64,000 bases of DNA from Octopus vulgaris (taxonomy: Eukaryota). Under the pieces are notes generated by a model. It was not told the origin of the DNA. It saw only the letters and a list, made by a program, of their open reading frames with translations, and did no database searches. The stretch is taken from the NCBI GenBank assembly GCA_951406725.2, contig OX597824.1, forward strand, positions 69,564,001-69,628,000, written 5' to 3'. How positions within the stretch are numbered: the stretch's first letter is position 1; every line of letters begins with the position of its first letter. Shown here piece after piece: positions 3,400-34,933 of this stretch. The translations under genes and the position numbers were made by a program.

Positions 3400-3455
3400 A
3401 GCCGGATCGCGATTTCGGATTTTTATGTAGACCATCTTAATCCTCATCAGCGACT
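3400..3455 (-). ncRNA. Type I hammerhead ribozyme, canonical core
   Basis: Minus strand: AGUCG-CUGAUGA-GGAUU-(17 nt)-AAUCC-GAAA-UCGCGA-UC^CGGCU. Stem I 5 bp, stem II 5 bp, palindromic stem III, AUC cleavage triplet. Confidence 0.85.
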
Positions 3456-4017
3456 CTTAACGCCTAGAGTTAAACTCAACTACCTCTGTCAGTCTTATAA
3501 GAAAAACCGTTGAAAACGTGTGCTGATTTCCAAAATTGCAAAAGTGTAAGCAAGAAATTAAAAAGAGTGGCTAATTAGCAATTAGAACCTGAAAACAAAA
3601 TGAACAGAGGTCACAAAAGTGGTGCTGGTCAGTACTCTTTAGGTTCCAATTACTAATAAGCCACCCTTTTCAATTTGATATATATATATATATAGATATA
3701 TATACGTGGGGGCGTGCGTGTGTGTGTAGGATGAGTGTATGTATGTACATATATAAATATATGTATGTATGTGTGTGTGTGTATATATATATATATATAT
3801 AATACAAAATAAGAAAATGGAGAAACACATCTTAATCAATGATCAACTACCAGATAATACCCAACCACATAATTTATTAAACCACTACATATGAACATTA
3901 AGGTCAAACATAATAATATAGAACAAAACAATGTACATGAAAGAGTAATATGATACAATAAGTACAGTATGTATAAGTGAATATAAATAAATAAATACAA
4001 ATATAAATATAAACTAC

Positions 4018-4144
4018 ATCTTATAGCTGTTTCGGCCATGCAGATATGGGTGCCTCATTATGCTCATATTAGCCATGTGTGGTAGGTCAATATGTAATTA
4101 TAAATTAGACACTTACAAAAATATCCCAAGGCCTCTTCAGAGAT
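4018..4144 (-). ncRNA. Type I hammerhead ribozyme with long stem II insert (left arm, stem III point change)
   Basis: AUCU-CUGAAGA-GGCC-(long insert)-GGCC-GAAA-CAGCUA-UA^AGAU. Confidence 0.65.
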
Positions 4145-4509
4145 TATGAAGAACAAACTAAATTAAATATGAAAATCAGAGGAGATACACCCATACTATA
4201 GTAGGTACATACCCATAATATATAATATATAATATAATATACATATACATATGAGTGCATATATCCATACTCCTATAGAACATATGTATGTATATTGCTG
4301 TATATTATTATTATTATATATATGTATATATATATATATATATATATATATATATATATATATATATATATATATATATAGGAGTATGGAAATATGCACT
4401 CATATGTATGTGTATATCATATTATATATTATATATTATGGGTATGTACCCACTATTGTATGAGTGTACCTCCTCTGATTTTCGTATTTAATTTAGTTTG
4501 TTCTTCATA

Positions 4510-4632
4510 ATCTCTGAAGAGGCCTTGCGATATTTTTGTGTCTCATTTATAACTACATATTGACCTATCACAAATGGCTAATATGAGCATAAGGAGGCAC
4601 CCATATCTGCATGGCCGAAACAGCTGTAAGAT
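4510..4632 (+). ncRNA. Type I hammerhead ribozyme with 88-nt stem II insert
   Basis: AUCU-CUGAAGA-GGCC-(88 nt)-GGCC-GAAA-CAGCUG-UA^AGAU. All core nucleotides present, GUA triplet. Confidence 0.8.
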
Positions 4633-5028
4633 GTAGTTTATATTTATATTTGTATTTATTTATATTCACTTATACATACTGTACTTATTGTATCATATTA
4701 CTCTTTCATGTACATTGTTTTGTTCTATATTATTATGTTTGACCTTAATGATCATATGTAGTGGTTTAATAAATTATGTGATTGGGTATTATCTGGTAGT
4801 TGATCATTGATTAAGATGTGTTTCTCCATTTACTTATTTTGTATTATTAATTTGTGGTAAAACATTTTACCTTTGCCCATATAATACAGTAAATGAATTA
4901 ACTGCATTGCAATTCTTAACATTTATGTATTAACTTTGTTGGGTGCTTCACTAGCAGTATATTGGATATATGTTATCCCATGGAGAGTTGCATTTACAAC
5001 CCCCATCTCAATTTGTATATATATATAT

Positions 5029-5233
5029 ATTTCTTTACTACCCACAAGGGGCTAAACACAGAGGAGACAAACAAGGATAGACAAAGGGATTAAGTCGATT
5101 ACATCGACCCCAGTGCGTAACTGGTACTTAATTTATCGACCCCGAAAGGATGAAAGGCAAAGTCAACCTCGGCGGAATTTGAACTCAGAACGTAACGGCA
5201 GACGAAATACGGCTCGCATTTCGCCCGGCGTGC
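5029..5233 (-). mobile_element. SINE family A
   Basis: Reverse complement of the family A consensus (CCCACAAGGGGCTAAACACAGAGG..GAATTTGAACTCAGAACG). Confidence 0.9.
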
Positions 5234-5538
5234 ACGTATATATATATGTATATATGTATGAATGTAAGTATAGACATTTGCAACTAAAGAAATGCAAAGA
5301 GACATATTCAGATGGGGAAAATGCATAGAAAAAACATTAGTAAATTAGAAATAAAGGGTGAGAGAGATAGATAGAAATAGAGTGAAAAAGTGAAATAGAG
5401 AGAGAGAGAGACTGATAACTACATGCATACATAGATTAGCGGATACGTAATATAGAGGGAGATAGCATAATAGAAAGTGTGATATATATATATATACTTA
5501 GAAACACACACACATACATACATACATATATATATATA

Positions 5539-32005: not shown

Positions 32006-33111
32006 ATGGTAATTATTAAGCGAAAAATGTGATTCACTTTTTCCACTTCAAATAAAAAATGAAAAAGAAATAAGGGAACATGAAGATGAAGATGAAGAAG
32101 ATAGCAATAATAATTAAAAATGATAATAACAATAATGATAAAAATAACGGGATAACAGTGAGTGACCGGTTCCGATGACCTCAAAATCAACTTAACATTT
32201 TAGAGAACAAAAAGAAAAGAAAAAGGAAGAGAAATGGAAAAGAACAAAGATAAAAAGGGAATAGCTACAACAGCAAAAGAAAAAAAGAAATGAAAAATGT
32301 AGTAACAACAACATCTTAGCCACTGTAATGAATAATAATGTTAATGATCGAATTTCGGTTTGCAATGATGTCGATCGAAGACGATAAATTAAGCAGAATT
32401 ACAGTGAGCCGTGCAGAGGTGGTGGCAGTGGTGGCGGTGGTGATGTAGGGTGGGAGTTAAACAAGAGGAAAAAAAGGAGGGTGTGTTTGGTCATAACTAA
32501 GAAGAGAATTAGCAAAGATGGCGACGAAGAAAATAAACCAAGGGTGCAGAACGTGAAAGTGAAAGTGAAAGAGTTTAGGGAGGAGGAGGAAGTTACATAA
32601 AGTGGGGGGTGATGTAGTAAACCGTGAATTTCAAGATATGTGATGGGGGAGATAAATTGGGGTATTTTTTTTTTATTTAAACCCTGATCTGTACTGATTG
32701 AGCAGATTTATGATCAAAGGCATTCCAACTATGACCATCCCATATTTTTTTTCTTTATTTTTCCTTTTTGTCTTTTGATTTTTTCAAGCAATTTTCGTCT
32801 AAGAATGCATCATCCAGTGTGTCCATATTTTACGATGGATAATGAACACTAGAAATAACAGTCAAAGCGACTTGGCTGGTATTTTTAGTAGAGTGACCCT
32901 GATAGACCAATCGTGAGCAAAACGCGGCCCGCGTGACTTTTTGAATGGCACGCCTAAAAAAAATTACCTTGAAGTTTTTTAATAGTGCGGTTTGCCTGGT
33001 GATGAACCATATCTCATGCGGCCCGCTCTTCAGGAAATATATATATATATATATTTCGTTTTAGGATTTGGTTTGGAAGATTCTTTATGTGAGTTCACGT
33101 GTTGAAGCATA

Positions 33112-33382
33112 TTCTGTTGTGTCTGGGGACAGTCATTTTCTTTTTATACCTTATTATAACACACACTTACCGGTAAAATTTCCATTTTTTTTTTCCTAAA
33201 ATTTTCGTTGGGTCTTGCAACCTTTTCAATAGTCTTGTTGAGAGTCAAGACTATTGAAAAGGTTGCAAGACGCAACGAAAGTTTTAGGAAAATAAAAATA
33301 AGAAATAAGTGGAAATTTTAACGGTGAGTTTGTTACATTATAAGGCACAAAAAGAAAATGACTGTCGCCAGACACAACAGAA
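33112..33382. repeat. Fold-back inverted repeat (33112-33237 / 33246-33382), 8-nt loop
   Basis: TCTTGCAACCTTTTCAATAGTCTTG / CAAGACTATTGAAAAGGTTGCAAGA. The arm and left flank resemble a dispersed repeat at about 43150-43245. Confidence 0.9.
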
Positions 33383-33528
33383 AATATATATATATATACC
33401 TACACATGTATACAGATGTACATGTAGATGGAAACTCACAAACACGCACAAACATACACACAGACATACGCACACACGCACACACACACACCCACGCACA
33501 TATATGTGTGTGTATGTGTGTGTATGTA

Positions 33529-34244
33529 TTAAATAAAATGAGACAACAAAGCTAAGGCTGTGTGGAATTTTCAGGACATTTATAAAGAGAAAGTTAGTTT
33601 TACAGCTGTTTCTGGGATATTAGGGATATCCTTTGATCAGAAACGATGTTAGATGGTTCTTCGGATGAGGTCCTTAATTTTGGTGAGTAGAAGTAAGAGG
33701 AGAGTGTTTTGTGAAGGAATAGGTATTTCCTTAAGAGAGATATCAAGGAATTGTTAATCCATTATATAAACGTTACCTGTAATAAGTGCCTGTATTAGCA
33801 AAGAAGCAAAAGTATGAGAGTTTTTGGTATCCAGAAGACCCAAGGTGGCAGGTAAGGCGATGTAAGTGCTATGAAAGGACCGTAGATAAACTCTCGGTTC
33901 GAAAATAATACGAGTGAGGAGTCTAATGGTGTTCTCGTATGAGCATATATATGTTAAATAAAATGAGACAACAAAACCAAGGCTGTCTGAGCATTTTTGC
34001 TCAAATTATCGACGTGGTGCCGAACGTTGTGTTGAAGAAGCACGCTGTGTCTCAGGTCGGGTCTTTTGGAATTACCCATCGAACGAAGTTGACAGGCAGC
34101 GATATCATAAGAGCATTCCATCTGCTGGGCGAATTCCCGCATGAATTGGGGCAGATCCTCGTGGATGAGTTCGTTCAATCCATCTTTATCAAACTTATTA
34201 CAGTTTAAATAAAATGAGACAACAAAGCCAAGGCTGTGTGGAAT
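33529..34244 (-). mobile_element. Internally deleted Penelope-like element with three copies of its terminal motif
   Basis: TTAAATAAAATGAGACAACAAA..AAGGCTGT at 33529, 33954 and 34205. Minus strand 33651-33772 reads MD*QFLDISLKEIPIPSQNTLLLLLLTKIKDLIRRTI (PLE ORF N-terminus-like), directly followed by an HHR. Confidence 0.7.
33597..33644 (-). ncRNA. Type I hammerhead motif with a core G8C change (probably inactive)
   Basis: GUUU-CUGAUCA-AA-GGAUAU-CCCUA-AUAUCC-CA-GAAA-CAGCUG-UA^AAAC. Confidence 0.6.
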
Positions 34245-34449
34245 ATATATATATATATATATGTATAGATGCCGAAATTGCGAAGATAATCTGGTACTTG
34301 ACTGAGGAAAGAAAACTTAGAATGACCCGTCCTTGTTTTCTTGGTATCGTCTGTCTGGATGTTTTGTTGTCCCATTTTGGTATCACCTAACTGTTCGGAT
34401 GTTTTGTGTTCTTTTTCCATTTTATATTTTATATATGTATATATATATA

Positions 34450-34660
34450 TGTGACCGCGTGTGTACGGTTGGCGAATTTTTTTCCTCCGTCTTCCCTTCT
34501 CTGGATCTTTCCTTTTCCTATGTTTCTGACGAAGAGCTCCGCTCGAAACGTTGAACCCTCCTTCTTCCCTTCCTTCCTGAGCGTCCAATAATACTATATT
34601 TGTTCCACGTCCTCGCGTTGTTGTGTTTTCTCTTTGTGTTTTCATGTTTGGATTAACTAT
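34450..34660 (+). mobile_element. Short dispersed HHR-bearing element (family of 9726-9920)
   Basis: Near identity with 9726-9920. Flanked by (TA)n. Confidence 0.75.
34522..34556 (+). ncRNA. Minimal type I hammerhead ribozyme
   Basis: GUUU-CUGACGA-A-GAGC-UCC-GCUC-GAAA-CG-UU^GAAC. ACGU palindrome in place of stem III, extra A after A9. Confidence 0.75.
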
Positions 34661-34677
34661 ATATATATATATACATA

Positions 34678-34933
34678 TATATTTATCAAAAGAAAAACAG
34701 GATGCAAAGGATTTAGTGGTACATATGTTTCTGGCTTTATTATACAGTTTATATCAATGCATTATTGATGTAATATGTATGTCAATAGCCATCTTCAGCC
34801 GCGCACAATTACCACACCAAGGTTATTGACATACATATTACTTCATTTATGCATTGATATAAACTGTCTAATAAAGCCAGAAACATATGTAAAGCTAAAT
34901 CCTTTGCATCCTGTTTTTCTTTTGATAAATATA
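34678..34933. repeat. Fold-back inverted repeat (34678-34790 / 34821-34933)
   Basis: ATTTATCAAAAGAAAAACAGGATGCAAAGGATTTAG / CTAAATCCTTTGCATCCTGTTTTTCTTTTGATAAAT. Confidence 0.9.
34716..34802 (-). ncRNA. Type I hammerhead ribozyme with 52-nt stem II insert
   Basis: GCGG-CUGAAGA-UGGC-(52 nt)-GCCA-GAAA-CAUAUG-UA^CCAC. One stem I mismatch. Confidence 0.75.

What the first reader, a model, noticed from the sequence alone, without database searches (positions are those of the whole stretch)
3400..34802. Different palindromic stem III per ribozyme family: a possible dimerisation 'self' code
Seen: the segment from A15.1 to U16.1 is palindromic but variable: AUCGCGAU (3.4 kb), ACAGCUGU (4.6 kb and 33.6 kb), ACGU (9.8/34.5 kb), ACAUAUGU (34.7 kb), ACAUGU (27.3 kb), near-palindromic AGUAAUUAGU (19.2 kb). 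Established: minimal HHRs with an unstable stem III cleave as dimers through such palindromes. Inference: distinct palindromes would restrict activation to same-palindrome partners, such as tandem copies on one RNA. This would give a copy-sensing or family-specific switch, while the two contexts sharing CAGCUG could cross-activate.
Basis: partly seen in the sequence, partly recalled or inferred. Interest (0 to 1): 0.7.

Follow-up and report, generated by a model that had tools for sequence, protein, structure and literature searches.

The report
Hammerhead remnants of Penelope-like retroelements
These are real but mostly decayed copies of the small dimer-type self-cutting RNA motif that Penelope-like jumping genes carry; their family-to-family palindrome differences are already described and look like drift under a pairing requirement, not a selected 'self' code.

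Summary
A palindrome-blind scan found 6 top hits against 0.03 in shuffles. I found four more sites; only 3 of 12 are fully intact. Palindromic, family-variable stem III is published for Penelope-like-element hammerheads (PMC4209133, PMC3088659), and this scan noted such motifs in other genomes.

The physical inference holds in a pairing model: same-family dimers were best for 9 of 9 motifs. The 'code' reading is weak. Stem I also swaps in the dimer and alone blocks 11 of 49 cross pairs, against 3 for stem III alone. The palindromes cross-pair more than random ones, not less. In a published table, 9 of 20 co-resident family pairs share a palindrome. No intact same-strand tandem lies in the window, and three loci are inverted pairs that would bury the ribozyme.

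One case favours the idea: related repeats at 27.3 and 37.9 kb keep a compatible stem I but differ in palindrome. No Penelope protein was confirmed. Cleavage was not tested.

The parts
3400..3455 (-). Type I hammerhead, intact: stem I 5 bp, CUGAUGA, stem II 5 bp, segment AUCGCGAU, H=C
4018..4144 (-).
4510..4632 (+). Type I hammerhead, intact, 96-nt stem II region, segment ACAGCUGU, H=A; arm of a 94% inverted repeat (3799-4254 / 4400-4847) around (TA)n
9797..9831 (+). Loop-less minimal hammerhead, segment ACGU, one stem II mismatch; within a roughly 190-bp element 96% alike to the 34.5 kb copy
19184..19259 (-). Type I hammerhead, U.U at base of stem II, segment AGUAAUUAGU (4 of 5 pairs)
19565..19621 (+). 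Inverted partial copy of the 19.2 kb motif (arm 19490-19621, 98%): box and stem II, cut at the GAAA
27287..27315 (+). 3' half only: stem II, GAAA, segment ACAUGU, H=C; first box replaced by microsatellite
33597..33644 (-). Hammerhead with G8 replaced by C, segment ACAGCUGU, H=A; in a unit of about 425 bp bounded by a direct repeat (33530 / 33955)
34522..34556 (+). Loop-less minimal hammerhead, intact, segment ACGU, H=U; high-copy element 34449-34640 between (TA)n runs
34716..34802 (-). Type I hammerhead, long stem II, segment ACAUAUGU, H=A, stem I mismatch at third pair
34820..34895 (+). Inverted 5'-truncated copy of the 34.7 kb motif (84%), lacks first box, keeps ACAUAUGU
37859..37903 (+).

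Best explanation
The sites are terminal remnants of about eight lineages of Penelope-like elements or their non-autonomous derivatives. In an active element the hammerhead sits in the terminal repeat. Two copies on one tandem transcript swap strands, so that stem III and stem I both form between the copies, and the RNA is cut after UH. This needs a self-complementary A15.1-U16.1 segment, but any palindrome serves. Lineages therefore drift among palindromes, with a bias towards A-C...G-U. Same-family preference follows passively from stems I and III together; it is leaky and not a selected address system. Most copies in this window are truncated, mutated or in inverted pairs and probably do not cut. 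Shown: motifs, palindromes, decay, inverted layout, high copy number. Modelled: dimer preference. Inferred: Penelope origin, cleavage, absence of selection for distinctness.
For: Descriptor versus shuffles, 6 against 0.03. Modelled active homodimer costs less per site than the monomer in 7 of 7 motifs that can close a hairpin; the 2 ACGU motifs cannot close one (1 M standard state, no tertiary contacts). Inverted truncated copies at 3 loci match published Penelope layouts (PMC4209133; PMC8557442). Of 49 cross-family ordered pairs: 32 fail at both stems, 11 at stem I only, 3 at stem III only, 3 at neither. Mean cross-pairing of 7 palindromes is 2.71 against 1.61 for random palindromes (P>= 0.0007), or 2.41 with the second base fixed (P>= 0.08). 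Published Fig. S3 of PMC4209133: 29 of 56 rows are ACGU; 9 of 20 co-resident pairs are identical against 0.29 pooled chance (my hand count). A Poseidon hammerhead needed protein to cut, was killed by G8C, and was dispensable for insertion in vitro (PMC11167929).
Against: No RT or GIY-YIG domain was found in 148 of 156 filtered frames, and an RT-like remnant near 28 kb was not confirmed, so the Penelope link rests on RNA motif and layout. The 27.3/37.9 kb pair differs in palindrome while stem I stays compatible. Only 7-8 families were compared, and shared ancestry could hide avoidance. No genome was held, so family consensus is only partly seen (40 of 240 rows).
Confidence: 0.78

Rival explanations
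1. Selected 'self' code: families diversify the stem III palindrome so that only own-family RNA activates cleavage, or so that non-autonomous parasites are shut out, as HIV-1 DIS palindromes bias partner choice.
For: Same-family dimer best for 9 of 9 motifs in the model. Related repeats at 27.3 and 37.9 kb (3' flank 145 of 226 identical, z 15.7) keep 6 bp of cross stem I but only 2 bp of cross stem III. Six different perfect palindromes among 7 families. The DIS precedent is real (PMC3187697).
Against: Palindromes cross-pair more than random. Stem I is the sole block more often, 11 against 3. Published co-resident families share palindromes in 9 of 20 pairs. On a tandem RNA the partner is set by covalent linkage, so no code is needed (inference).
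Confidence: 0.08
2. The 8- and 10-nt segments fold as a 2-3 bp stem with a tetraloop and cut as monomers or with protein help, so the palindrome is secondary and partner choice is irrelevant.
For: Invertebrate retrozyme hammerheads cut efficiently as monomers (PMC7229834; PMC7761336). The Poseidon hammerhead is protein-assisted. Four of 10 segments can close 2 bp with a 4-nt loop at +2.4 kcal/mol, and one at +4.8.
Against: The central loops are self-complementary in 8 of 8 families, which a monomer does not need. The model favours dimers. ACGU cannot close a hairpin.
Confidence: 0.1
3. The motifs belong to tandem non-LTR retrozymes or SINE-like repeats that make circular RNA, rather than to Penelope terminal repeats.
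For: The ACGU element is a short unit of about 190 bp with the same ends in both copies. The 33.6 kb unit has a period of about 425 bp, and one contig each in X1 and X2 continues the repeat into a hammerhead (table 5). Retrozymes are proposed to be Penelope derivatives (10.64898/2026.07.22.740005), so this overlaps the best explanation.
Against: No tandem of two complete motifs in the window. The short stem I and residue 9.1 fit the minimal class.
Confidence: 0.04

Closest known systems
Minimal hammerheads (min-HHR) in pseudo-LTRs of metazoan Penelope-like elements (Cervera and De la Pena 2014, PMC4209133)
   Same: Type I topology, short stem I, palindromic 15.2-16.2 and loop 3, many sequence families per genome, mostly solo truncated copies, opposite-strand pairs 100-700 bp apart. 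Its Fig. S3 consensus writes helix III as 'Palind' and lists loop-less and 6- to 10-nt forms.
   Different: Here 6 of 8 families have 8- or 10-nt segments, two have stem II regions of 60-100 nt, and no flanking RT/endonuclease ORF was confirmed.
Penelope-associated small hammerheads that cleave as dimers (Lunse, Weinberg, Breaker 2017; seen only as a title in reference lists and as summarised in PMC6765202 and PMC6466107)
   Same: Palindromic short stem III, with a tandem arrangement needed for cleavage.
   Different: Text not held, so I cannot say whether it tested mixed-family dimers.
Repeat-type hammerheads of Aedes and others (Perreault 2011, PMC3088659, Fig. S8 legend)
   Same: Palindromic stem and loop III across several ribozymes, with variants, read as dimer-forming.
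   Different: No family-specificity claim in the passages seen.
Non-LTR retrozymes (PMC7229834; bioRxiv 10.64898/2026.07.22.740005)
   Same: Type I hammerheads in short non-coding repeats, probably Penelope-derived.
   Different: They are defined by tandem units each with a full motif; none lies in this window.
HIV-1 dimerisation initiation signal palindromes (PMC3187697)
   Same: Different palindromes lower partner pairing between lineages; this is the working analogy for a 'self' code.
   Different: DIS selects a partner in trans for packaging. Here partners are normally linked in cis, a second helix (stem I) also swaps, and no avoidance between families is seen.

Membership tests
Type I hammerhead | CUGANGA and GAAA boxes with UH site in type I order | tested here: met
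   Both boxes intact in 7 of 12 sites; 2 have a C3 or G8 change, 3 are half copies
Type I hammerhead | Stems I and II beyond chance | tested here: met
   6 hits against 0.03 in 60 shuffles
Type I hammerhead | Match to an Rfam hammerhead model | tested here: not met
   0 matches at gathering score; none among the 150 of 397 rows shown at E<=5
Type I hammerhead | Self-cleavage | not testable with these tools
   No assay; only contigs were laid
Penelope min-HHR | Palindromic 15.2-16.2 and loop 3 | tested here: met
   9 of 11 segments perfect; central loop self-complementary in 8 of 8 families
Penelope min-HHR | Extra residue between positions 9 and 10.1 | tested here: inconclusive
   Present at 9.8, 19.2, 33.6, 34.5 and 37.9 kb; absent at 3.4, 4.0/4.6 and 34.7 kb
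Penelope min-HHR | Palindrome kept at family level | tested here: inconclusive
   No change listed in 3 palindromes among 40 of 240 rows; ACGU in loose-end consensus of 4 of 4 runs; one of two window copies of the 4.6 kb family is broken
Penelope-like element | Motif lies in a pseudo-LTR beside an RT plus GIY-YIG ORF | tested here: inconclusive
   No such Pfam hit in 148 frames; RT-like remnant near 28 kb gave only unrelated hits
Penelope-like element | 5' truncation and adjacent inverted copies | tested here: met
   Inverted pairs at 4.0/4.6, 19.2/19.6 and 34.7/34.9 kb; truncated 27.3 kb
Non-LTR retrozyme | At least two tandem units each with a complete hammerhead | tested here: not met
   None in the window; only a hint at other loci for the 33.6 kb family
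Non-LTR retrozyme | Loop 1-loop 2 tertiary contacts and circular RNA | not tested
   Not examined
DIS-like palindrome code | Own-lineage partner preferred | tested here: met
   Model only: same-family dimer best for 9 of 9 motifs
DIS-like palindrome code | The palindrome is the discriminating part, and co-resident palindromes avoid each other | tested here: not met
   Stem I sole block 11 against stem III 3 of 49; cross-pairing above random; 9 of 20 published pairs identical

The most novel reading that the evidence does not exclude
Sister Penelope lineages in this genome change the stem III palindrome as the first step of RNA-level isolation. While stem I stays compatible (as in the 27.3 and 37.9 kb pair), a palindrome switch stops a new lineage from being cut in trans by, or from activating, the abundant RNA of older or non-autonomous relatives. 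That would be a selected two-helix address system among co-resident retroelements, analogous to HIV-1 DIS.
Probability: 0.08. Interest if true: 0.65.

Novelty: new member of a known kind. Interest (0 to 1): 0.2.

Why it matters
As found, it adds more examples to a described class of Penelope-associated dimer-type hammerheads. It also corrects one point of mechanism: partner choice in a double hammerhead rests on stem I as much as on the palindrome. If palindrome switching were shown to be selected, it would be a ribozyme-based self/non-self barrier between transposon families and would give a role to motifs whose function reviews still call unknown (PMC7761336). The evidence here leans against that.

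Tried and rejected
No whole genome was held, so the genome-wide test could not be run. Rfam: 0 hits at gathering score; the 150 of 397 rows shown at E<=5 were nearly all miRNA models, largely on microsatellites. A family pattern with stem III left open gave 0 loci in viral contigs and 2 in metagenome contigs; neither has the stem III/UH/stem I continuation, so both were rejected as chance. Pfam on 148 of 156 frames found no RT or GIY-YIG domain. The RT-like frame 28091-28357 gave no hit among 18 candidates and 3 weak hits: two PAS-domain proteins and one without a family, with no supporting tblastn match. Sequencing runs: no RNA holder listed; X13 is only guessed to be RNA and shows nothing on expression. 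My first strict descriptors missed motifs with residue 9.1 or mismatches. Candidates at 26193, 35952, 42399 and 42814 were rejected as chance-level. No 3'-flank homology was found between the 4.6 and 33.6 kb families; only 1 of 28 pairs had z>3. Literature searches listed no paper that by title or abstract start tests mixed-family dimers; Lunse 2017 was not held. Look-ups of earlier notes by place, by sequence and by 'self code' words returned nothing. A note of mine said the 33599 difference restores stem I; on recheck it only keeps pairing, as U.G.
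Full report
SETTING. The window is animal-type, repeat-rich DNA: mostly 29-47% GC, with 202 tandem-repeat rows. The only Pfam hit above its cut-off in 148 of 156 filtered frames is a mariner HTH. No genome is held. That it looks like octopus DNA is my recollection and comes from no call.

OBSERVATION. These are 3.4, 4.6, 19.2, 34.5 and 34.7 kb, plus an unreported copy at 4.0 kb; 9.8 and 33.6 kb score 9 and 8. Outer pairs of a hairpin are trivially complementary, so the informative part is the central loop. 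It is self-complementary in 8 of 8 families, including all five families among the six blind hits. By hand, four tetraloops at 1/16 and one dinucleotide at 1/4 give about 4e-6. Rfam has no match.

STATE OF THE COPIES. I count 12 sites. Seven keep both boxes and three are fully intact (3.4, 4.6, 34.5 kb). 33.6 kb has G8 replaced by C, a change that abolished cutting in a Poseidon hammerhead (PMC11167929, passages). 27.3 kb lacks the first box. 4.0 kb has a broken palindrome. A further motif at 37859-37903 has C3 replaced by A and the palindrome ACCGCGGU. Three loci are inverted pairs: 4.0/4.6 (94%), 19.2/19.6 (98%, cut at the GAAA) and 34.7/34.9 (84%, first box missing). A read-through RNA over these pairs folds into a long hairpin that pairs off one or both boxes. 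The only same-strand pair with the same palindrome and both boxes is 9.8/34.5 kb, 24.7 kb apart. The 4.6 and 33.6 kb sites are on opposite strands.

FAMILY LEVEL. Contigs of four public runs were laid on 33530-34812: 22,662, 27,568, 13,575 and 5,768 contigs, so these are high-copy repeats. Only 40 of 240 difference rows were shown; by my reading these are rows with about 79% share or more in some run. None falls in the three palindromes. Position 34553 differs in 98-99.7% of depth and turns a U.G of stem I into U-A. Position 33599 differs in 97-98% and, on its own, turns a U-A into U.G. The loose-end consensus at 34574 reads ACGU in 4 of 4 runs. One contig each in X1 and X2 joins 33986 to 33591, a hint that the roughly 425-bp unit occurs head to tail elsewhere. 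No row was shown for the G8 position of 33.6 kb, which I cannot explain.

MECHANISM. In a hammerhead, the strand bearing C3-A9 and GAAA also bears the 5' side of stem I, and the strand bearing U16.1-H17 bears its 3' side. If stem III forms between two copies, stem I must too (deduction from the core's connectivity). In a ViennaRNA model without tertiary contacts, at 1 M standard state, the active homodimer costs less per site than the monomer in 7 of 7 motifs that can close a hairpin. The two ACGU motifs cannot close one. The best partner was of the same family for 9 of 9 motifs. The closest leak is the 33.6 kb enzyme strand on the 4.6 kb substrate (5.0 against 2.8 kcal/mol for self). The reverse direction has 1 bp of stem I as the window reads, or 3 bp with the family-majority base at 33599 (read by hand).

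IS IT A CODE? Four results argue against it. (a) Of 49 cross-family ordered pairs, with 3 contiguous pairs as the cut-off, 32 fail at both stems, 11 at stem I only, 3 at stem III only and 3 at neither. (b) The seven perfect family palindromes cross-pair by 2.71 contiguous pairs on average, against 1.61 for random palindromes of the same lengths (P>= 0.0007) and 2.41 with the second base fixed (P>= 0.08) (19.2 kb left out as imperfect). With six families the values were 2.9 against 1.6 and 2.35. An address system predicts less than random. (c) In Fig. S3 of PMC4209133 (supplement text, parts 1-2 of 3), 29 of 56 rows are ACGU. Nine of 20 pairs of families from one species share the palindrome, against 0.29 from pooled frequencies (my hand count, one duplicate row dropped). 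The figure was read from PDF text with the GAAA column displaced. (d) The Poseidon hammerhead cut only with its protein and was not needed for insertion in vitro. One result argues for it: 27.3 and 37.9 kb share 3' flanks (145 of 226 identical, z 15.7; the only pair of 28 above z 3), pair across stem I by 6 bp, and pair across stem III by only 2 bp. This is one pair, both copies are broken, and drift explains it equally. The samples are small and relatedness is not controlled.

WHAT IS KNOWN. PMC4209133 (main text parts 1-2 of 4) states that helix III is capped by a palindromic loop, that a second copy in tandem gives an active dimer and that this is thought to regulate cleavage. It also states that genomes hold many consensus families, that positions 15.2-16.2 and loop 3 are palindromic, and that opposite-strand pairs occur 100-700 bp apart. 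PMC3088659 (passages) shows palindromic stem and loop III in several ribozymes. PMC6765202 and PMC6466107 (passages) restate the tandem-dimer model. PMC8557442 (passages) describes inverted 5'-truncated copies and (TA)n targets. PMC7229834 (abstract, passages, sections 14 and 17) and PMC7761336 (passages) report efficient monomer cutting by most invertebrate retrozyme hammerheads. The preprint 10.64898/2026.07.22.740005 (parts 1-3 of 5; supplements not seen) found cutting in 1 of 9 genomic dimers. PMC3187697 (passage) gives the HIV-1 DIS precedent. Lunse 2017 was not held. Seven searches listed no mixed-family dimer test, so the explicit 'code' wording may be unpublished, but the key paper is unseen. 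Earlier notes of this scan on other genomes reached the same filing; I did not check them, and they are not evidence.

MEMBERSHIP. The motifs work like Penelope minimal hammerheads and meet the RNA and layout features. The protein link is open: no RT or GIY-YIG hit. A stretch at about 27940-28357 recalls Penelope RT motifs (the DKT variant is named; the rest is recalled), but it gave only unrelated hits.

VERDICT. These are new members of a known kind. Passive same-family preference is likely; a selected palindrome code is unlikely (about 0.08). Interest 0.2.

Noticed in passing
window 37859-38100 (+) and 27287-27530 (+): Two related repeats with different stem III palindromes (8 nt and 6 nt) and covarying stem II, but a cross-compatible stem I.
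   Followed up: yes
window 27940-28357 (+): Frameshifted, stop-ridden stretch that recalls a Penelope-type reverse transcriptase N-terminal region, about 600 bp downstream of the 27.3 kb half motif; searches did not confirm it.
   Followed up: partly
window 33635: G8 is replaced by C in this copy, yet no majority difference was listed at this place in four runs (40 of 240 rows shown); the family may be mixed at this core position.
   Followed up: partly
window 33530-33997: Unit of about 425 bp bounded by a 43-bp direct repeat (a third 39-bp copy at 34206). Depth falls more than 100-fold at 33659, where 45 contigs of one run continue with other sequence: possibly an internally deleted derivative.
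   Followed up: partly
window 19200-19254 (-): U.U at the base of stem II. A U.U there is described for an axolotl hammerhead (PMC7229834), so this may be a family trait rather than decay.
   Followed up: partly
window 8377-8745, 11654-12122, 19640-19930; arms 9056-9495 / 11213-11652: SINE-like repeat in 184-bp tandem units, also as a 440-bp inverted pair at 97%; no hammerhead was found in it.
   Followed up: no
window 1470-1733 (-): Mariner transposase HTH remnant (PF17906, E 2.6e-9).
   Followed up: no
window 34010-34200 (-): Short frame that recalls a mariner catalytic region (from memory; no Pfam hit).
   Followed up: no
window 33178-33308: Near-perfect fold-back of about 130 bp; scores below threshold on miRNA models.
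   Followed up: no
window 47640-47685 (+): Weak hammerhead-like motif with a 5-bp stem II, segment AUAU and a variant first box; at chance level for half motifs.
   Followed up: partly
window 25621-25914 (+): Weak zf-RVT match (E 0.005, below cut-off); possible LINE remnant.
   Followed up: no
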